This document shows, in pieces, positions 1-29,088 of a stretch of 32,000 nucleotides of DNA (positions are counted from its first letter, which is position 1; the number at the start of each line of letters is the position of its first letter). The stretch is from Methanothermobacter thermautotrophicus str. Delta H (lineage in GTDB: Archaea > Methanobacteriota > Methanobacteria > Methanobacteriales > Methanothermobacteraceae). Location of the stretch: NCBI RefSeq assembly GCF_000008645.1, contig NC_000916.1, positions 1,290,001 through 1,322,000 on the forward strand. Reading direction: 5' to 3'. The notes under the pieces are model-generated. The model searched no databases. It saw only the letters and a program-made list of their open reading frames with translations, and was not told the DNA's origin. The position numbers were made by a program, and so were the translations under genes.

Positions 1-418
1 AACCCATTGTTCCGCGCTCCTCAGTACCTATACGTCCCTTCACCACGCCTAAAAAAACCTCGGGTTCGGAGTTGGGGGTGCAGAACCCAACAGCCGACCT
101 GAACTCGGCGTAGCGATCTTCAACATTTTCCATGAGCTTTAATATGCCACGGTTTCCTATGGTATCCTGTACATAGGCAGAATAGGGTCCTGGAAACCAT
201 TTAAGAGCCCTTATAAACAGTCCTGCGTCCTCAACGATCACAGGACCATCCATGATCCTGGCAGCATGTTCTGCACCGTAACGGGCCACCTCCTCAAGTG
301 TTCCCTGAAGTTCCGGGTAGCCCAGATCAGCATGCATCAGTTCTATTCCAGTACCATGGAATATCTTCTCTGCCTCAGATAACTTGTGTTTATTACCGGT
401 TATAAATGTTACCTTCAT
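1..418 (-). CDS. non-canonical purine NTP pyrophosphatase (Ham1/RdgB/ITPase family); 3' part lies beyond the window start
   Basis: Absent from the ORF track because it has no stop in the window. Reverse-strand ATG at 418..416 opens [88 protein letters not shown]... This shows the ITGNxxK, EDxGL and FPGPYS motifs typical of Ham1-family proteins. Confidence 0.8.
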
Positions 419-480
419 GATGAACCTCCTCAGTCAGTATATTCAGGGGGTTTAGTATCGTGTGGATATTAATTCTGAGC

Positions 481-2085
<1,605 letters not shown>

Positions 2086-2173
2086 TTAATTAACCACCTG
2101 TGACCCTGCTCCTTCTGGAGTGTAACTAATTTATGTATCTCCGGTTATAACTATTGTATCGTTGGAAAGGTGA

Positions 2174-3253
2174 ATGGAAATGTTTGATGGACTGAAGATC
2201 TATGGTTCCGGCAATTACCTTGAAGGTGTTACTGACAGGGATTCCCTGTTCATCTGCGCCGTTGCAACAACCGAGACATCAAGAATCCCGGGAATAACAG
2301 GGGCAGGAGCAAGCCCCGAACTCACAGAGTACACTCCAGCAGCTGATGTTGAACTCATAGTTCATGATGCCCCCAGGTGTCTTCCTGAGATACCCCAGAC
2401 CATCGTGGAGGGGGAGGCAGCCCCCACACCGGCTGTGATAACCAAGGCGGCCCTGGAACTTGCAGAGGTCCCCTTCATGGTCGCCGATGCAGGCGCCTCG
2501 GTTAAACCCGATGTTCCCTATATAAACATTAACTCCGAACCCGGAGGTGATATAAGGACAGGGAGGGCGGTCACCGAACCTCAAAGGATATATGAGAGGG
2601 GTTTGATGGTTGGAAGGACCCTCTCCTCCCTCACAGAGCATCTGGTGGTGGGTGAGAGCACACCGGCAGGTACAACAACTGCCCTGGGCGTTTTAACGGC
2701 CCTGGGATATGATGCTGATTTCAGGGTCAGCGCCAGCATGCCCCACAACCCACATGACCTCAAGAGGGAGGTTGTGATGGCAGGACTCAGTAATGCAGGG
2801 ATCGAGAAGGGGGACTGCTCCAGGGAACCCTTCAGGGCAGTGGAGGCAGTGGGGGACCCCATGATACCTGCGGTTGCAGGGATATGCATGGGCAGCACTG
2901 TACCGGTGACCCTTGCAGGTGGTACCCAGATGACAGCGGTCTGCGCCCTTATGAGGGCCATTGACCCGGACTTCGACTTTTCAGATACAGCAATTGCAAC
3001 GACCATATTCGTTGCCGAGGACAGCACCTCCGATATAAACAGGATAGCAGAGCAGATAGGTGATATTGACATCTATGTGGTTGACCCTGACTTCGGGTCT
3101 GCCTCGCACAGGGGGCTCCATGAGTACCTCAACGGTTCTGTGAAGGAGGGTGTTGGGGCCGGCGGCGCCATGCTACTGGCACTTCTCCATGGCATACCCG
3201 TTGAAATGGTGAGGGAGCGTATCGAGGAACTCTGCAATACAATACTGGCCTGA
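2174..3253 (+). CDS. CobT-like phosphoribosyltransferase homologue (UPF0284 family)
   Basis: 359-aa ORF containing GESTPAGTTTALG, a CobT/DMB-PRT-like glycine-rich motif. The family assignment is from memory. The second ATG at 2180 has better spacing to the AGGTGA RBS at 2168-2173 and may be the true start. Confidence 0.7.
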   Translation: MEMFDGLKIYGSGNYLEGVTDRDSLFICAVATTETSRIPGITGAGASPELTEYTPAADVELIVHDAPRCLPEIPQTIVEGEAAPTPAVITKAALELAEVPFMVADAGASVKPDVPYININSEPGGDIRTGRAVTEPQRIYERGLMVGRTLSSLTEHLVVGESTPAGTTTALGVLTALGYDADFRVSASMPHNPHDLKREVVMAGLSNAGIEKGDCSREPFRAVEAVGDPMIPAVAGICMGSTVPVTLAGGTQMTAVCALMRAIDPDFDFSDTAIATTIFVAEDSTSDINRIAEQIGDIDIYVVDPDFGSASHRGLHEYLNGSVKEGVGAGGAMLLALLHGIPVEMVRERIEELCNTILA

Positions 3254-3275
3254 AATCCTTTAATGGAGGTTCCAG

Positions 3276-3917
3276 ATGACTTCAGGGTCCCGCTGGGATG
3301 GCATCATCCCACACCCTGGAATTCTTGCCTTTGCAATGGCACTCTACCTTCTTGGCTTTGTACTGGATGCCTCGGGAAGACCACTGGCCTATGGGTTCCT
3401 CACAGGGGACATGGTGGTCCACTTCTTCACGTTCCCTGGTCTCAGGGAGCAGTTCATCGATTACCTGTTAGCAACTGCCTTCTGGATATTCATATCAAAC
3501 ATAACCCAGGTTACAGTCTTCATCTTCTCCCTGGCAACATTTTATCCTGTTCTTAAGATTTTCGTCCTTGCAGGGGCCCTCTTACATAACCTTCTGGTGG
3601 GGTGGGGTGTCAGGGGGCTCCTGATCTATGCGGGGACACTGCACCTGCACCTTGAGGTCACAGGGTGCCTACTTTCACTTCAGGCAGCCCTTGTATTTGT
3701 GAGGTCCCTCCTTGGGACCATCCAGCACAGGTCCAGAGGACCTCTCGTCACAGCCCTCAGGGAGAACCTTGCATACCTTATCCCACTTATAATACTTTTA
3801 TTCGCCATTGCAGCAATTCTGGAGGTCTTCTGGAGCACCTGGTGGGTTTATAACCTCACCCATGGACCGGTATCATGGAGATACTTCTATACCCATGTAT
3901 TCTCTGTGGAACTCTGA
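3276..3917 (+). CDS. polytopic integral membrane protein, function unknown (possibly DUF95/SpoIIM-like)
   Basis: 213-aa ORF with about 5-6 hydrophobic segments. GGAGGT RBS at 3265-3270. Codon usage is consistent with neighbouring genes. The family guess is weak. Confidence 0.6.
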   Translation: MTSGSRWDGIIPHPGILAFAMALYLLGFVLDASGRPLAYGFLTGDMVVHFFTFPGLREQFIDYLLATAFWIFISNITQVTVFIFSLATFYPVLKIFVLAGALLHNLLVGWGVRGLLIYAGTLHLHLEVTGCLLSLQAALVFVRSLLGTIQHRSRGPLVTALRENLAYLIPLIILLFAIAAILEVFWSTWWVYNLTHGPVSWRYFYTHVFSVEL

Positions 3918-4029
3918 TTTTTAATCGATTCAGGAGCTCTGGTATCTGAAACCCTTTAACCTTTATGCATCTGCTTTAACAAAACGAAGAGCTTTGAATA
4001 AAAAAGGTGGTGCGGATACAGCTTCACCA

Positions 4030-4859
4030 TTAGATGAGGGCGGCTGCAAGGATCATGATACCCAGTGCCCAGCAGTAGTAGGCGAATATGTAGAGGTCCC
4101 TCTCCTTTATGAGTTTAAGGAGGAACTTTATGGCTATGTAACCTGACACAGCCGCTGCAGCAAACCCTGCAACCATGCTGGCACCGAGGAGGTTCATTCC
4201 GGCCCCAATGTCCTTGATCTGGATGAGGGCGGCCCCCAGTATCGCGGGTATGGAGAGGAGGAAGCTGTACCTTGCTGCAAGTTCCCTCTCAAAGCCGAGA
4301 AACAGGCCCGCAGAGATTGTTGCACCTGAACGTGATATGCCGGGTGCTATGGCAAGGGCCTGGGCACACCCTATTATGAGTGACTCCCTGACACCGAGTT
4401 TTTCAACTGGAAGCTTCTCCCTCACACGCCTGCTGATATTCTCTGATCCCCACAGCAAAAAGCCTGTGACCAGCAGGAAGAATCCCACGGCGGTTAAACT
4501 GCTGAAAAGTGACTCAAAGAAGTCCTTGAACAGTACACCAGCAAGGCCGGCCGGCACAGTACCGATGATCACCATCCAGGCAAGCCTCTTGAAGGGGTCC
4601 TCAATGATTCCCCTCCTGAATCTACCTGCGGGATGTCCCTCAGACTTGAGAGGAAAGCCCCCAGCATGTGAACTATATCGTTCCAGAAGTATCCAATGAC
4701 AGCCACCAGTGTGCCCACATGCAGCACGGTGTCGAATGCGAGGCTGGAGCTGACACCCATAAGTTCCGGCACCAGCACCAGGTGGCCTGAGCTGCTTACT
4801 GGCAGGAATTCGGTCAAACCCTGCACTGTTCCAATGACTATGGCCTGAAAAACGTCCAT
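4030..4859 (-). pseudogene. uppP: undecaprenyl-diphosphatase (UppP/BacA), reading frame broken by an apparent 1-nt frameshift between 4572 and 4638
   Basis: Two adjacent ORFs together make one UppP. The N-terminal piece is [29 protein letters not shown]...[15 protein letters not shown] (frame ends at TGA 4569-4571). The C-terminal piece is ...[31 protein letters not shown]...GISRSGATI... (frame open from 4638 down to 4030). Start is ATG at 4859 (or 4865). Confidence 0.85.
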
Positions 4860-4861
4860 GA

Positions 4862-4903
4862 ACATCACTTTTAACTTATAAGTTATCACTTATAACCTCA
4901 TCA
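4862..4903. repeat. array of 7-bp units ACATCAC TTTTAAC TTATAAG TTATCAC TTATAAC CTCATCA, the same unit as the array upstream of parA
   Basis: Read directly from the sequence. It fills almost the whole 44-nt gap between the ilvE stop (4904) and the uppP ATG (4859). The 18-mer TAACTTATAAGTTATCAC at 4872-4889 matches TAACTTATAACTTATCAC at 27957-27974 at 17 of 18 positions. Confidence 0.6.
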
Positions 4904-5824
4904 TCAGATGTAGGTGAGCCATCCGAAGCTGTCCTCTGTCTCTGCCCTGATTATCCTGAAGAACTCATCCTGCAGCAGCTTTGTAACGGGACCCCTTCGC
5001 CCGGCACCTATCTCTATACCATCAACTGATCTGATGGGTGTTATCTCTGCGGCTGTACCTGTGAAGAAGGCCTCATCTGCGATGTAGAGCATCTCCCTGG
5101 TTATGGGTTCCTCATGCACGGTAACACCCTCGGTCCTGGCTATCTTTATTACGGAGTCCCTTGTTATCCCCCTCAGAAGGGATGATGAAACAGGGGGGGT
5201 GTAAATTTCACCCTCACTGACGAGGAATATGTTCTCCCCGCTACCCTCACTTATGTAGCCATGGTAGTCCAGCATTATGGCCTCATCATAGCCGTGTCTC
5301 ACAGCCTCCATCTTGGCAAGCTGTGAGTTGAGGTAGTTACCGCCGGCCTTTGCCATGTTGGGCATTGTGTTTGGTGCCATCCTCCGCCAGGTTGAAACAC
5401 CAGCATCGACACCAACCTCAAGGGCCTCTGCACCCAGATAGGCCCCCCATTCCCAGGCAGCCACAGCGACGTCCACTGGGCAGTTCACCGGGTGAACACC
5501 CATCTCACCGTATCCCCTGAATACCACGGGTCTTATATAGCACTCCTCAAGTCCGTTCTCCCTGACGGTCTCAACTATGGCATCACATATCTGCTCCTGG
5601 GTGTAGGGTATGTCCATCCGGTATATCTTTGCAGAATCAAAAAGGCGTTTAACATGCTCCCGCAAACGGAAGATGGCTGACCCCTTACTGTTCCTGTAGC
5701 ACCTTATTCCCTCAAAGACAGATGATCCATAATGCACAACATGTGAGAGTACGTGGACGGTGGCTTCTTCCCATTCAACCATTTCACCGTTTAACCATAT
5801 CTTTCCACTGGCTTCGCATGACAT
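4904..5824 (-). CDS. ilvE: branched-chain amino acid aminotransferase (class IV PLP enzyme)
   Basis: The ORF track gives 4904..5896. I place the start at ATG 5824 ([21 protein letters not shown]...), preceded by a TGAGGT RBS, because the 5' extension runs through promoter-like repeats. Motifs include FEGIRCY, GGNYLNS and EGSGENIF. Confidence 0.92.
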
Positions 5825-7840: not shown

Positions 7841-8050
7841 CTGCCGGGGTTAGACTTAATAGAGCTATGTTATAAGATATACTTAAAATTTGATATAAAG
7901 ACTATAAAAAGATAGAGATGATTATTGATGAAGATCAACCATCAGTTTTTTGGATCCATAGAAGAAGATAAGGGCGAGGATTAACATAATTGAGCATAAG
8001 ATAATGATGATTGGTATCAGTTTAGTTCAAATGGAGGAAGATGATCAGCA

Positions 8051-23593: not shown

Positions 23594-25069
23594 TCACCCC
23601 AGTATCTTCCTGATATCCTCTTCAGGGTCACCTATTGGTGTGAGGTCATAGTTATCAACCAGGAACTTCACTATGTCCTCGTTGGCCCAGCCAGGCAGGA
23701 TTGGACCGATGTACATGCCCTTGAGGTCCAGTGATAGGAGGCTCCAGAGTATGGCGGCTGCCTTCTGTTCCATCCAGCTGAGGATTATGCTGAGTGGCAG
23801 CTCATTTATATCCATCTGGAAGAGGTTGCTGAGGGCCTCAACGAGTTCAACTGCCACTATGGCATCGTTGCACTGCCCGAGGTCTATGAGCCTGGGAACC
23901 CCCTCGATGTCACCCAGGTCCATGGAGTTGAACCGGTACTTTCCACAGGCCAGTGTAAGGACAACGGTGTCCTCTGGCAGTTTTCTCACGAATTCGGTGT
24001 AGTATTTTGCCCTGGGGAGGGGGGAGTCACAGCCACCCACAAGGAAGAATCTCCTTATCTTACCATCCTCAACCAGCTCCCTGATCTTATCTGCCAGTGA
24101 AAGTATGGTTGATAACCCGAATCCTGTTGTGAGGGTCGTGGCATCCTCTTCACTGAGTGGGGGTAGTTCAAGGGCCTTATCTATGAGGGGACTGAAGTCA
24201 TAGCCCTCCAGGTGTTCAACTCCGGGCAGGGCTGCAACACCACAGGTGAACATGCGATCCCTGTAATCATCGCGGGGAAGCAGGACACAGTTAGATGTTC
24301 CAAGTATGGCAGCAGTGTAGCGTGAGAAGGTGTCCTTCTGGTCGAACCATGGGCCTCCGAGCTGGCCGGCAAGATGGGGGTACTTCCTGAGTCCAGGGTA
24401 GCCATGGGCTGGCAGGAGCTCTGAATGGGTGTAGACGTTTATGCCGGTACCCTCGGTCTGCTTCAGAAGCTCCTCGAGGGCCCTGAGGCTGTGGCCGGTT
24501 GCGATTATGGCGGGACCTTCAAGGGCCCCCACCCTAACCTCGGTGGGCTCGGGTTCCCCGTAGGTGTCAATGTGGGCCTTCTTCAGGAGCTTCATGGTCC
24601 TGATGTTCATCTCACCTGCTTCAAGGGCAAGGTCTATGAATTCCCCGGCATCGAAGTTAACGTTTGTGAGGGTTGAATAGAATCCCCTCTCAAGGAAGGC
24701 GTCCACCTCCTCATCAGTGTATCCGAGTTCCCTGGCATGGTAGAGATAGGCTGAAATTCCCTTTATTGCGAATAGAAGGTTGTCCTGGAGTCTGGCAACT
24801 GTTGGTTCCTTTCCACAGACTCCCCTGATTGTGCAGGCCCTTCCACGGACGGTCTGGGAGCACTGATAACAGAACATGTCTATATCCTCGGGTCGCACCC
24901 GTTTTATTTCACCCCGGAGGGGTTCAAACTGGTCCTTGCCCACGTTGCACACAGGGCAGAGCCAGTCATCCGGAAGTTCCTCAAAGGGTGTCCCGGGTTC
25001 TATACCTGAGCGGGGGTCACCCACCTCCGGATCATATATGTAGTCACATACCTTGCAGCGGTACTTCAT
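23594..25069 (-). CDS. hcp: rubredoxin-domain fusion to hybrid-cluster protein (prismane/hydroxylamine reductase family, short form)
   Basis: The N-terminal 50 aa are a canonical rubredoxin ([10 protein letters not shown]...[13 protein letters not shown]). The Hcp N-terminal Cys cluster follows ([23 protein letters not shown]) with the rest of the Hcp body. ATG 25069 is 5 nt after a GGTGAT RBS; the track start is TTG 25075. Confidence 0.88.
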
Positions 25070-25190
25070 TTTCAATCACCATATTAAAAACTGGCAGTAA
25101 ATTATATATAATTTTTGTCACTATTTCAGTATAAAATGTAACAGATAGATGGGGAGGGGACTCCAGGGATATAACGAGTGAGGTGTGTTT

Positions 25191-27953: not shown

Positions 27954-28002
27954 TGATAACTTATAACTTATCACATATACTTTATAAGTTATAAATTATA
28001 AC
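27954..28002. repeat. seven contiguous 7-bp units TGATAAC TTATAAC TTATCAC ATATACT TTATAAG TTATAAA TTATAAC upstream of parA
   Basis: Read directly with strict 7-nt phasing over 49 bp. The array ends 12 nt before the GGTGAT RBS (28015-28020) of parA and must overlap the parA promoter. Confidence 0.7.
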
Positions 28003-28023
28003 TTAGATCCAGCAGGTGATGAG

Positions 28024-28793
28024 ATGGGAGAGGTAATTTCAATCATAAACCAGAAGGGTGGCTGTGGAAAGACAACAACAGCCGTTAATCTATCAGCAGC
28101 ACTTTCCTCCTTGACAGGAGGGTTCTTGTAATCGACATGGACCCCCAGGGCAATGCAACCACTGGGTTCGGGATAAACAAGTCAGAACTGGAGTCAACAA
28201 TATACACGGTCCTGAGCCGAAAGGCAGCACTGTCCTCTGTGATAATGCCTGCAGAGCTCCAGGACCTCTACATAGCACCCAGTAACATATCCCTCAGCGG
28301 TGCCGAGATAGAGCTCAGCAGTGAGATAGGATACCATGCCATCCTCCAGGAGTCACTGGGGGATGTGAGGAATGACTTTGACTACATATTCATAGACGCC
28401 CCACCATCCCTGGGCATACTCACACTCAACGCCCTCGTGGCCTCTGACAGTGTCATAATACCCATACAGGCAGAGTACTATGCCCTTGAGGGCATGGCAG
28501 ACCTCCTGAAGACAATGAACCTGGTGGAAGAACGACTCCAGAGTCCCTGTCCGATAAAGGGGATACTGCTGACCCTCTACGATTCAAGGACACGACTTGC
28601 AAGGGACGTACAGAGGGAGGTTGAGAAGTTTTTCGGTGAAAGGGAGAACATCTTCAGGACAAGGATACCCAGGAACGTTCGCCTTGCAGAGGCCCCCAGC
28701 CACGGTAAGCCCTGCATAACCTATGACCCCGAAAGTACAGGTACAGAGGCCTACATGAAACTTGCAGCTGAAATACTTGAAATGGAGGGATAG
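28024..28793 (+). pseudogene. parA: ParA/Soj-type partition ATPase (deviant Walker A), frame broken by an apparent 1-nt deletion near 28105-28112
   Basis: [30 protein letters not shown] then a stop at 28129-28131. The other frame, open from 28089, reads ...[22 protein letters not shown]... and continues to 28793 with typical Soj motifs (FIDAPPSLG, IPIQAEYYALEG, RIPRNVRLAEAPSHGKP). Confidence 0.85.
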
Positions 28794-28794
28794 G

Positions 28795-29088
28795 ATGACA
28801 CAGAAGAAGGGCCTTGGAATGGGACTGGATGCACTGATCCAGTCAAGGACAAGGAAGGAACCTGAAAAAGATACCGGAAAGGATGATGATGCACGCATCC
28901 AGGAGGTCATACGGGAAGTTAAGAAGAATCCCCGGGTTACCCTTTGGTCTGCAAGATCAGCAGCTGTTTTAAGGTACCTTAAAAAGACGCAGCCAGAATT
29001 CAGCATAAGCAGGGAGGCATCTGCCCTTATAGAGCAGGCGGTGAGGAATAAGTACCCTGATATATGGGAGCTGTTTTCTGAACTTTAG
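28795..29088 (+). CDS. 97-aa protein: ParB/Spo0J N-terminal box (KKGLGMGLDALI), a charged linker, and a predicted ribbon-helix-helix-like C-terminal domain; candidate ParA partner / centromere-binding protein
   Basis: The ATG at 28795 is 1 nt after the parA stop, with a GGAGGGA RBS. Sequence: MTQKKGLGMGLDALIQSRTRKEPEKDTGKDDDARIQEVIREVKKNPRVTLWSARSAAVLRYLKKTQPEFSISREASALIEQAVRNKYPDIWELFSEL. The track start at 28762 overlaps parA and is rejected. Confidence 0.65.
   Translation: MTQKKGLGMGLDALIQSRTRKEPEKDTGKDDDARIQEVIREVKKNPRVTLWSARSAAVLRYLKKTQPEFSISREASALIEQAVRNKYPDIWELFSEL

What the first reader, a model, noticed from the sequence alone, without database searches (positions are those of the whole stretch)
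28795..29088. Mini ParB: ParB N-terminal box fused to a putative ribbon-helix-helix domain, encoded 1 nt after parA
Seen in sequence:
- The 97-aa ORF begins MTQKKGLGMGLDALIQS. This is the GLGxGLxAL box that opens chromosomal ParB/Spo0J proteins.
- The rest of ParB (the CTPase/ParB-N domain, the HTH and the dimerisation domain) is absent.
- After a charged linker, the last ~50 aa read PRVTLWS / ARSAAVLRYLKKTQ / PEFS / ISREASALIEQAVRNKY. That is a strand-helix-turn-helix pattern like RHH (Arc/MetJ/CopG) DNA binders.

Established knowledge: the N-terminal peptide of Spo0J/ParB stimulates Soj/ParA ATPase. Type Ib plasmid systems (ParF-ParG, delta-omega) pair a small ParA with an RHH centromere-binding protein whose flexible N-terminal tail activates the ATPase.

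Inference: this is a hybrid adaptor with a type Ia activation peptide on a type Ib DNA-binding module, located on an archaeal chromosome. I am not aware of such a partner being characterised in methanogens.

Caveat: the position normally holding the activating Arg/Lys (GLG-R/K-G) is Met here, although KK precedes the box.
Basis: partly seen in the sequence, partly recalled or inferred. Interest (0 to 1): 0.8.

Follow-up and report, generated by a model that had tools for sequence, protein, structure and literature searches.

The report
SegB-type partner carrying ParB's ParA-binding peptide
The 97-residue gene after parA belongs to the archaeal SegB family of centromere-binding proteins, and its first 15 residues match the short peptide that bacterial ParB uses to bind and switch on ParA; the family is already known, but this chimeric make-up and its likely DNA site do not appear in the papers I could search.

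Summary
A 97-aa ORF (28795-29088, +) starts 1 nt after the parA stop and sits behind a GGAGG ribosome-binding site.

- **C-terminal half:** it is homologous to Sulfolobus SegB, whose solved structure is a ribbon-helix-helix (RHH) centromere binder (PDB 7DUV, E 2.5e-8 with the single sequence, 5.9e-14 with a profile; hhalign 98.5%).
- **N-terminal box:** L-G-x-G-L-D-A-L-I is invariant in relatives across Methanobacteriales. [quoted passage not shown] In some relatives it is letter-for-letter LGRGLDALI, as in an annotated Parabacteroides ParB.
- **Partner ATPase:** it is a bacterial Soj-type ParA (53% identical to Bacillus Soj, 34% to Sulfolobus SegA). It keeps ParB's hydrophobic docking pocket.
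- **DNA site:** the upstream array is seven ATAACTT heptads, i.e. TTATAA-S-TTATAA. This has the same layout as the Sulfolobus SegB site TCTAGA-S-TCTAGA. Such sites flank the operon in 64 of 72 species and never lie inside the two genes.

The protein is a SegB-family member, and segAB cassettes in Methanothermobacter are already noted in the literature.

Two caveats apply:
- The central Arg/Lys of the box is Met here.
- parA in this window carries a 1-nt deletion, which is probably an assembly error.

No biochemistry exists for this clade.

The parts
27956..28005 (.). Array of seven 7-bp units (consensus ATAACTT). Read in 13-mers it is TTATAA-S-TTATAA. It is the candidate SegB-binding centromere/operator and ends about 19 nt before the parA start codon.
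   Evidence: TRF reports period 7, 7.1 copies, consensus ATAACTT. The 13-mer has 9 matches at up to 2 mismatches in the window against 0.20 expected, and 0 of 100 shuffles reach 9. The same motif lies within 200 nt upstream of parA in 64 of 72 species loci and never inside the genes.
28024..28793 (+). parA, a Soj-type deviant Walker A ATPase of 256 aa when intact. In this window it is interrupted by a 1-nt deletion in the C-run at 28106-28107, which gives a premature stop at 28129-28131.
   Evidence: Translations are. Four near-identical metagenome contigs carry CCC at that run and an intact 256-aa gene. Pfam AAA_31, CbiA and ParA match. Best PDB matches are M. xanthus ParA 8RAY at 249 bits and T. 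thermophilus Soj at 206 bits; Sulfolobus SegA 7DUT reaches only 73 bits.
28784..28788 (+). GGAGG Shine-Dalgarno-like sequence 6 nt upstream of the ATG of the 97-aa ORF, inside the 3' end of parA.
   Evidence: Read directly from the sequence.
28795..29088 (+). segB-like gene: the 97-aa centromere-binding protein candidate.
   Evidence: Translation. phmmer against the PDB hits SegB 7duv_A at E 2.5e-8. The profile search gives 5.9e-14. hhalign against Sulfolobales SegB gives 98.5%, E 3.9e-15. There are 345 homologues, and relatives in 231 species genomes.
28804..28839 (+). N-terminal ParB-type ParA-binding box: residues 4-15, KKGLGMGLDALI. The hydrophobic residues are L7, L11, L14 and I15, and the central residue is M9.
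   Evidence: These columns are invariant. The spacing is identical to M. xanthus ParB L11, R13, L15, L18, I19. The only PDB hit of the box profile below E=1 is the N-terminus of T. thermophilus Spo0J. Annotated ParB N-termini read ALGRGLDALI, LGRGLSALM and LGRGLAALI. AF2 predicts a helix at residues 9-19, at low confidence (mean pLDDT about 50 over residues 1-20).
28840..28923 (+). Charged linker of variable length (residues 16-43); its first part is predicted disordered.
   Evidence: Linker length ranges from about 10 to about 100 residues among homologues. pLDDT is below 50 for residues 20-28.
28924..29085 (+). SegB-type RHH domain (residues 44-97). The presumed beta-strand is NPRVTLWS (45-52) and includes R47, the equivalent of the Sulfolobus DNA-contact residue K52. 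Helices are predicted at 53-63 and 73-86, with a short helix at 88-93.
   Evidence: Aligned to SegB residues 35-101. The SegB signature motif from PMC12139799 is matched at 8 of 11 positions, with one further I-to-V change. PMC8682754 states that K52 is replaced by Arg in euryarchaea. AF2 model of the domain has pLDDT 82.5.
4869..4895 (.). Second small cluster of the same motif (TTTTAACTTATAAGTTATCACTTATAA). It lies in the short gap between an aminotransferase-like gene and the start of uppP, and is a possible additional binding site.
   Evidence: Three overlapping 13-mer matches at 1 mismatch each; context. Not followed up in relatives.

Best explanation
The ORF encodes a SegB-family centromere-binding protein that partners a bacterial-type (Soj-like) chromosomal ParA.

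**Shown by computation**
- The C-terminal 55-60 residues are homologous to the RHH DNA-binding domain of Sulfolobus SegB.
- The first 15 residues carry the canonical ParA-binding motif of bacterial ParB.
- A variable linker joins the two.
- The gene is fixed immediately downstream of parA across Methanobacteriales.
- Arrays of ATAACTT heptads (TTATAA-S-TTATAA) flank the operon.

**Inferred mechanism**
1. Dimers bind the heptad arrays through the beta-ribbon, in which R47 is the equivalent of SegB K52. This builds a partition complex next to the operon. The array ends about 19 nt before the parA ATG and overlaps the likely TATA region, so binding probably also represses the operon's own promoter.
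2. The two flexible N-terminal tails of each dimer fold into short helices.
3. [quoted passage not shown] This tethers the complex to nucleoid-bound ParA-ATP and promotes ATP hydrolysis and ParA release.

In most relatives the central residue of the box is K or R, as in ParB. In this organism it is Met. Binding is therefore expected, but the strength of ATPase stimulation is uncertain.
For: **Homology to SegB**
- phmmer against the PDB gives E 2.5e-8, the profile search gives 5.9e-14, and hhalign gives 98.5%.
- SegB is an RHH protein whose N-terminal 21 residues are needed to stimulate SegA (PMC8682754).

**The box**
- It is invariant in 24 homologues and present in all complete copies in 80 species loci.
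- Its spacing equals the M. xanthus ParB motif, whose four hydrophobic residues are each needed for ParA recruitment (PMC12462528).
- Annotated ParBs encoded next to Soj-like ParAs begin ..ALGRGLDALI..LGRGLSALM and ..LGRGLAALI. The motif pattern has no off-target match in 242,545 residues.
- The only PDB hit of the box profile below E=1 is the Spo0J N-terminus (E 0.023).

**The partner**
- ParA scores 275 bits and 53% identity to B. thuringiensis Soj, against 85 bits and 34% to Sulfolobus SegA.
- The ParB-pocket residues of M. xanthus ParA (V116, L150, L152, L155, L187, L192) are I, L, I, L, L, L here, and are hydrophobic in nearly all 79 ParAs compared.
- The invariant residues Y81 and E117 are kept in all 79.

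**The DNA site**
- TRF finds a period-7 array, and the 13-mer is about 45-fold above chance in the window.
- Density is about 20-fold higher in the 200 nt upstream of parA than elsewhere in 72 species loci.
- All 370 matches lie in the operon flanks and none inside the genes.
- The hexamer-S-hexamer layout matches the ChIP-derived Sulfolobus SegB site (PMC12284271).
- The same heptad occurs upstream of an Archaeoglobaceae homologue that has the same NPRITLWS strand.
Against: - **No experiment.** There is no experimental work on any euryarchaeal member.
- **Central Met.** The central box residue is Met here. In M. xanthus ParB, R13A keeps ParA binding but almost abolishes ATPase stimulation and segregation (PMC12462528).
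- **ParA contact residues.** Two acidic ParA residues thought to contact that Arg (E82, D110) are mostly S, T or A in Methanobacteriales ParAs. This holds whatever the partner's central residue is, so no clear co-variation was found.
- **Broken parA.** parA is frameshifted in this window.
- **Weak structural support.** Monomer AF2 models gave no significant Foldseek match. The best was SegB 7dv2_A at E 2.5, TM 0.48. The RHH fold therefore rests on sequence homology, not on a structural match.
- **Site assignment.** The heptads are assigned to this protein by location and by analogy only.
Confidence: 0.75

Rival explanations
1. The protein is only an RHH autorepressor of the parA operon. The heptads are an operator and the N-terminal box has no role in ParA control.
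For: The array ends about 19 nt before the parA ATG and overlaps a TATA-like TTTATAAG. Many RHH proteins are repressors. The central activating residue is Met here.
Against: An operator role does not explain several things. The 9-residue box matching ParB's ParA-binding motif is invariant. The ParA pocket is retained. Large site arrays lie downstream of segB in many species (144 matches). The homologous SegB is a partition protein (PMC8682754, PMC12284271). Autoregulation and partition coexist in ParG and omega (my own knowledge).
Confidence: 0.1
2. The system is decaying in this lineage. parA is a pseudogene and the box has lost its activating Arg/Lys, so the small ORF is a relic or has been put to another use.
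For: There is a 1-nt deletion and a premature stop in parA in the window. Met sits at the central box position.
Against: Four near-identical contigs from independent metagenomes have an intact 256-aa parA. A second conserved gene in the window, uppP/BacA, is also split by a frameshift, which points to assembly indel errors. The 97-aa protein is 89-99% identical among its closest relatives. The M/L variant is stably kept in several clades together with intact ParA.
Confidence: 0.07
3. The N-terminal resemblance to ParB is convergent or coincidental, and the tail binds a different partner or a different surface of ParA, as was proposed for ParG on ParF.
For: The motif is short. Sulfolobus SegB has only the second half (ELDFLL followed by lysines). 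The acidic patch for the central Arg is poorly conserved in these ParAs.
Against: The motif is identical over 9-10 residues to real ParBs, lies at the same distance from the N-terminus and is preceded by the same basic residues. The partner ATPase is of the Soj type that ParB peptides activate, and it keeps the pocket residues. Convergence driven by the same pocket would still give the same mechanism.
Confidence: 0.08

Closest known systems
SegB of the SegAB chromosome-segregation system (Saccharolobus solfataricus, Sulfolobus acidocaldarius; PDB 7DUV, 7DV2)
   Same: - The C-terminal RHH domain is homologous.
- The gene lies directly after a ParA-like gene.
- A flexible N-terminal tail is implicated in ATPase control.
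- The linker is variable in length.
- The binding site has the palindromic hexamer-S-hexamer layout and lies next to the operon.
- Euryarchaeal orthologues, including Methanobacteriales, are already listed in the literature.
   Different: - **N-terminus:** it is the full ParB-type LG(K/R/M/L)GLDALI box here, against MSELDFLLKKK in Sulfolobales.
- **Partner:** it is a 256-aa Soj-type ParA only 34% identical to the 220-aa SegA.
- **Candidate site:** it is TTATAA-S-TTATAA rather than TCTAGA-S-TCTAGA.
- **Beta-strand:** it reads NPR(I/V)(T/S)LWS rather than DPKIGVWS.
Bacterial chromosomal ParB/Spo0J (type Ia ParABS): the N-terminal ParA-binding peptide only
   Same: The motif and its position are the same: basic residues followed by L-G-(R/K)-G-L-x-x-L-I within the first 20 residues. 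The cognate ATPase type is the same and the docking pocket is conserved.
   Different: There is no ParB/Srx CTPase domain, no HTH and no ParB dimerisation domain. CTP-gated clamp closure therefore cannot bring the two peptides together; the RHH dimer would have to do that. The central residue is Met in this organism.
Type Ib plasmid centromere binders ParG (TP228) and omega (pSM19035)
   Different: No sequence similarity was detected in the PDB searches. The partner here is a Soj-type ParA rather than a small ParF/delta-type ATPase. The tail motif is the ParB type. The location is chromosomal.
AspA-ParB-ParA of Sulfolobus plasmid pNOB8
   Same: It is another archaeal partition system that mixes bacterial-type ParA/ParB parts with an archaea-specific DNA binder.
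   Different: That system has three components: a real ParB N-domain protein acts as adaptor and a separate DNA binder (AspA) contacts the DNA. Here a single 97-aa protein combines the peptide and the DNA-binding domain.

Membership tests
SegB (archaeal RHH centromere-binding protein) | Significant sequence homology to characterised SegB over the DNA-binding domain | tested here: met
   7duv_A at E 2.5e-8; profile search at 5.9e-14; hhalign 98.5%, E 3.9e-15 over 66 columns.
SegB (archaeal RHH centromere-binding protein) | Signature motif K/R-D/N-P-K/R-I-G/T-V/L-W-S-Y/P-P/E (PMC12139799), including the DNA-contact K52 (Arg in euryarchaea, PMC8682754) | tested here: met
   Residues 44-54 read K-N-P-R-V-T-L-W-S-A-R. 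Eight of 11 positions match, I to V is conservative, and the last two differ. R47 is invariant in 24 homologues.
SegB (archaeal RHH centromere-binding protein) | Encoded immediately downstream of, or overlapping, a ParA-like ATPase gene | tested here: met
   The spacer is 1 nt in the window. parA lies directly upstream on the same strand in 77 of 80 species loci, and the other three contigs are truncated.
SegB (archaeal RHH centromere-binding protein) | Ribbon-helix-helix dimer fold | tested here: inconclusive
SegB (archaeal RHH centromere-binding protein) | Site-specific binding to palindromic sites near the operon | not testable with these tools
   A candidate site was found: TTATAA-S-TTATAA arrays flank the operon in 64 of 72 species loci. 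Binding itself needs EMSA or ChIP.
SegB (archaeal RHH centromere-binding protein) | N-terminal tail stimulates the partner ATPase | not testable with these tools
   The box is conserved and the ParA pocket is conserved.
ParB/Spo0J (ParB/Srx CTPase clamp) | ParB/Srx N-terminal domain with a CTP-binding motif, a central HTH and a C-terminal dimerisation domain | tested here: not met
   No Pfam or NCBIfam match at E up to 10; the protein is 97 aa.
ParB/Spo0J (ParB/Srx CTPase clamp) | N-terminal ParA-binding motif L-G-(R/K)-G-L-x-x-L-I | tested here: met
   The hydrophobic positions and glycines are all present. The central residue is M in the window. Across 74 Methanobacteriales copies it is K in 44, R in 19, M in 8 and L in 3.
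Type Ib ParG/omega RHH partition proteins | Sequence membership in the ParG or omega families, paired with a small ParF/delta-type ATPase | tested here: not met
   Neither ParG nor omega chains appear in the PDB sequence searches. The partner ATPase is Soj-type: ParF 4dzz scores 44.6 bits against 249 bits for chromosomal ParA.
Chromosomal ParA/Soj (the partner gene) | Deviant Walker A KGGxGKT, full-length similarity to chromosomal ParA, and a conserved ParB-binding pocket | tested here: met
   The motif [10 protein letters not shown] is present. M. xanthus ParA scores 249 bits and B. thuringiensis Soj is 53% identical. Pocket residues and Y81/E117 are conserved. The copy in this window is frameshifted.

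The most novel reading that the evidence does not exclude
Outside Sulfolobales, 'SegB' would be a literal chimera: the portable ParA-activating peptide of bacterial ParB mounted on a SegB RHH dimer. It would drive an ordinary Soj-type ParA through the same dimer-interface pocket that ParB uses, and would mark the chromosome with (ATAACTT)n heptad centromeres that flank its own operon.

The Sulfolobus N-terminus (ELDFLL-KKK), paired with the divergent SegA, would then be a shortened derivative. On that view SegAB arose from a ParABS-like system by replacement of the ParB body. The recently proposed transfer from Sulfolobaceae to Methanobacteriales would need revisiting.
Probability: 0.55. Interest if true: 0.6.

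Novelty: new variant of a known kind. Interest (0 to 1): 0.5.

Why it matters
It links two partition systems that the literature treats as separate. SegB is described there as having no sequence similarity to bacterial proteins, and a 2025 preprint calls the euryarchaeal N-terminal regions lineage-specific domains of unknown function.

If the box works as in ParB, three things follow:
- The ParA-activating peptide is a transferable module that does not depend on the CTP-gated ParB clamp.
- A 97-aa protein plus a heptad array would be a minimal, testable centromere system for a methanogen that the literature describes as diploid.
- The natural K/R-to-M/L variants would offer a test of what the central basic residue does.

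The work also gives a concrete candidate centromere motif for Methanobacteriales. A motif search seeded with the Sulfolobus consensus found no convincing site near segAB in the one euryarchaeon discussed (Thermococcus sibiricus; PMC12284271).

Tried and rejected
- **Family libraries:** Pfam and NCBIfam scans of the 97-aa protein gave only noise.
- **Short-peptide search:** tblastn of a 25-aa N-terminal peptide against plasmids found no match, because the query is too short. I replaced it by fetching annotated ParB genes next to Soj-like ParAs.
- **Structure searches:**
  - Foldseek of the full-length monomer model found nothing.
  - Foldseek of the C-domain model put SegB on top, but not significantly.
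  - A dimer or a ParA-peptide complex could not be modelled with the tools.
- **Genome scan:** the diverse alignment A4 was too variable to seed the scan, so the scan used A1 and returned only Methanobacteriales.
- **Co-variation, box centre against ParA acidic patch:** I compared the central box residue (K/R against M/L) with the ParA residues equivalent to E82 and D110. There is only a weak trend: D/E in 15 of 68 and 11 of 68 ParAs in the K/R group, against 0 of 11 in the M/L group. This is inconclusive.
- **Co-variation, box against ParA type:** I tested 'box present means Soj-type ParA, box absent means SegA-type'. This was rejected. Box-less and degenerate-box relatives outside Sulfolobales also sit next to Soj-type ParAs.
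- **Literature:** the 2012 PNAS paper that first described SegAB is not held. I therefore could not check whether its alignments already point out the ParB-like box.
- **Alternative ORFs:** the overlapping minus-strand ORF 28584-29006 and the longer TTG-started frame from 28762 were considered and set aside. Relatives conserve the plus-strand protein from the ATG.

Full report
**1. The observation**

Window 28795-29088 (+) translates to MTQKKGLGMGLDALIQSRTRKEPEKDTGKDDDARIQEVIREVKKNPRVTLWSARSAAVLRYLKKTQPEFSISREASALIEQAVRNKYPDIWELFSEL. The parA stop is TAG at 28791-28793 and the ATG is at 28795. A GGAGG lies 6 nt upstream of the ATG. Neither Pfam nor NCBIfam recognises the protein, so no ParB/Srx domain, HTH or ParB dimerisation domain is present.

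**2. What the C-terminal half is**

- A sequence search of all PDB chains hits SegB of Saccharolobus solfataricus: 7duv_A at E 2.5e-8 and 7dv2_A at 2.7e-7, over query residues 13-93.
- A profile built from 24 homologues raises this to 5.9e-14.
- A profile-profile comparison with 12 Sulfolobales SegBs gives 98.5% probability and E 3.9e-15 over 66 columns.
- SegB has a solved ribbon-helix-helix fold, binds DNA site-specifically, and needs its unstructured N-terminal 21 residues to stimulate the SegA ATPase (PMC8682754).
- Residues 44-54 (KNPRVTLWSAR) match the published SegB signature at eight of eleven positions, with I to V as a further conservative change.
- R47 sits at the position of the DNA-contact residue K52. 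That paper says K52 is Arg in euryarchaea.
- Structure prediction supports this only loosely. The full-length monomer model has mean pLDDT 69.5, and the C-domain model reaches 82.5. Both show an extended segment followed by helices, in the expected order.
- Foldseek gives no significant match. SegB 7dv2_A is the top hit for the C-domain model, at E 2.5.
- An RHH needs a dimer, and a dimer could not be modelled here. The fold assignment therefore rests on homology.

**3. What the N-terminal box is**

- In 24 homologues spanning 54-92% identity, L7, G8, G10, L11, A13, L14 and I15 are invariant, while the linker varies from about 10 to about 100 residues.
- M. xanthus ParB binds ParA through L11, L15, L18 and I19, with a central R13 (PMC12462528). 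This L-G-R-G-L-x-x-L-I spacing is exactly that of L7-G-M9-G-L11-D-A-L14-I15.
- A 27-position profile of the box, searched against 177,635 PDB sequences, has a single hit below E=1. It is residues 1-15 of T. thermophilus Spo0J (E 0.023).
- I fetched annotated ParB genes lying next to Soj-like ParAs on PLSDB records. Their N-termini read MAALKRSALGRGLDALIT (Parabacteroides)..RGLGRGLSALM (Phaeobacter)..RRLGRGLAALI (Rhizobium) and VAKGLGRGINVFF (B. thuringiensis Spo0J). Methanobacterium relatives of the window protein read ..ESALGRGLDALIR.
- The motif pattern matched 86 times in 242,545 residues of open frames, always in a SegB-like ORF or a ParB.
- The box is therefore a ParB-type ParA-binding motif in sequence terms. 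Whether it arose by descent or by convergence cannot be decided here.

**4. The partner**

- With the frameshift repaired, the upstream gene is a 256-aa ParA.
- Its best PDB matches are M. xanthus ParA (8RAY, 249 bits), T. thermophilus Soj (206 bits) and H. pylori Soj (191 bits). Sulfolobus SegA (7DUT) scores 73 bits.
- It is 53% identical to B. thuringiensis Soj. That is as close as bacterial ParAs from different phyla are to one another. It is 34% identical to SegA.
- The six hydrophobic residues of the M. xanthus ParB-binding pocket are I, L, I, L, L, L here and are hydrophobic in nearly all 79 ParAs compared.
- The invariant Y81 and E117 near the central Arg are kept in all 79.
- The less conserved acidic E82 and D110 are mostly S, T or A.

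**5. Conservation and distribution**

- The protein has 345 homologues in the 5.8-billion-protein set.
- A full HMMER search finds 289 cluster representatives.
- 231 GTDB species genomes encode a relative. The best 80 are all Methanobacteriales by name or similarity: Methanothermobacter, Methanobacterium, Methanobrevibacter, Methanosphaera and Methanovirga.
- parA is directly upstream on the same strand in 77 of these 80 loci; the other three contigs are cut.
- More distant relatives also begin with (K/R)LG(K/R)G(L/I/V)xA(L/I), including one from Archaeoglobaceae MAGs. In that locus the pair sits between two cdc6/orc1 genes.
- Sulfolobales SegBs instead begin MSELDFLLKKK. This aligns with the second half of the box only.
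- All non-Sulfolobales partners examined are Soj-type ParAs, even where the box is missing or degenerate.

**6. The DNA site**

Read in 13-mers it is TTATAA-S-TTATAA.
- The ChIP-derived Sulfolobus SegB site is TCTAGA-S-TCTAGA (PMC12284271). It has the same layout: two copies of a palindromic hexamer around a central G or C.
- In the window the 13-mer has 9 matches at up to 2 mismatches, against 0.20 expected. Five are in the array, three are at 4869-4895 and one is at 7870.
- In 72 species loci, 64 have at least one match (up to 1 mismatch) within 200 nt upstream of parA. Density is 11.5 per kb there and 0.58 per kb elsewhere.
- Of 370 matches, 226 lie upstream and 144 lie downstream of segB. 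All but one of the downstream matches are within 400 nt of segB, and none of the 370 is inside the two genes.
- The Archaeoglobaceae locus has the same strand sequence NPRITLWS and also carries ATAACTT units upstream of parA. The Sulfolobus locus has its own motif at the segA start.
- This pattern strongly suggests a cis-acting site recognised by the operon's product. Because the array reaches to about 19 nt from the ATG, autoregulation is likely. Both points are inference.

**7. Caveats specific to this window**

- **Central residue.** The central box residue is Met. Among 74 Methanobacteriales copies it is K in 44, R in 19, M in 8 and L in 3. In M. xanthus, R13A keeps binding but nearly abolishes ATPase stimulation and segregation. 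Activation in this organism is therefore uncertain.
- **Broken parA.** parA lacks one C in the run at 28106-28107, relative to four near-identical metagenome contigs whose gene is intact.
- **A second frameshift.** uppP/BacA is also split by a frameshift. I therefore think both are assembly errors, but this has not been shown.

**8. Comparison with what is known, and verdict**

- The protein is a member of the SegB family, not of the ParB family. Functionally it resembles type Ib RHH partners (ParG, omega).
- segAB cassettes in Euryarchaeota, M. thermautotrophicus and Methanobacteriales have been reported (PMC5120986, PMC12139799, PMC12284271). The existence of the gene pair is therefore known.
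- Four points are not stated in the papers I could search:
  - the euryarchaeal N-terminus is the canonical ParB ParA-binding motif;
  - the partner is a Soj-type ParA rather than a SegA-type ATPase;
  - the candidate centromere is an ATAACTT heptad array flanking the operon;
  - the box-bearing form is widespread outside Sulfolobales.
- The founding 2012 paper was not available to check.
- I rate this a new variant of a known kind, of moderate interest.

Noticed in passing
window 28100-28131: parA is frameshifted. One C is missing from the run at 28106-28107 compared with four near-identical metagenome contigs (L001-L004), which gives a stop at 28129-28131.
   Followed up: yes
window 4030-4889 (minus strand): The undecaprenyl-diphosphatase gene (Pfam BacA) is split into two ORFs, covering profile positions 1-74 and 87-257. 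This is a second frameshift in 32 kb and suggests indel errors in the assembly.
   Followed up: partly
window 4869-4895: A second cluster of three overlapping TTATAA-S-TTATAA-like units lies in the short gap between an aminotransferase-like gene and the uppP start, about 23 kb from the operon. It could be an extra binding site or a promoter element.
   Followed up: partly
L048 and L097 (same 2,385,948-bp Methanobacteriaceae chromosome): One chromosome carries two parA/segB-like cassettes: a canonical one (LGRGLDALI) and a divergent one whose box is degenerate (GLGNDMGKLL).
   Followed up: partly
L091 (Archaeoglobaceae MAG), 1-5327: The parA/segB-like pair lies between two cdc6/orc1 genes, which suggests a position near a replication origin. 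ATAACTT units are also present upstream of parA.
   Followed up: partly
L094 1100-1222; L093 1-86: SegB-like relatives that lack the box have different period-7 repeats upstream of their parA (for example TTTTTAG four times). This hints that heptad arrays are general to the family but differ in sequence.
   Followed up: no
proteins P0037, P0041, P0050, P0090, P0096: Several NCBI records name these 125-167-aa SegB-like proteins 'AAA family ATPase'. This looks like a misannotation carried over from the neighbouring parA.
   Followed up: no
window 23594-25075 (minus strand): A 493-aa ORF opens with a rubredoxin-like CxxC...CxxC segment ahead of a long cysteine-rich body. This was read from the translation only.
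   Followed up: no
Sulfolobales SegB N-termini (P0267-P0297): These all begin MSELD(F/L)(L/I)(L/F) followed by a basic run. This aligns with the LDALI-K half of the euryarchaeal box and may be a shortened ParB-type motif.
   Followed up: partly
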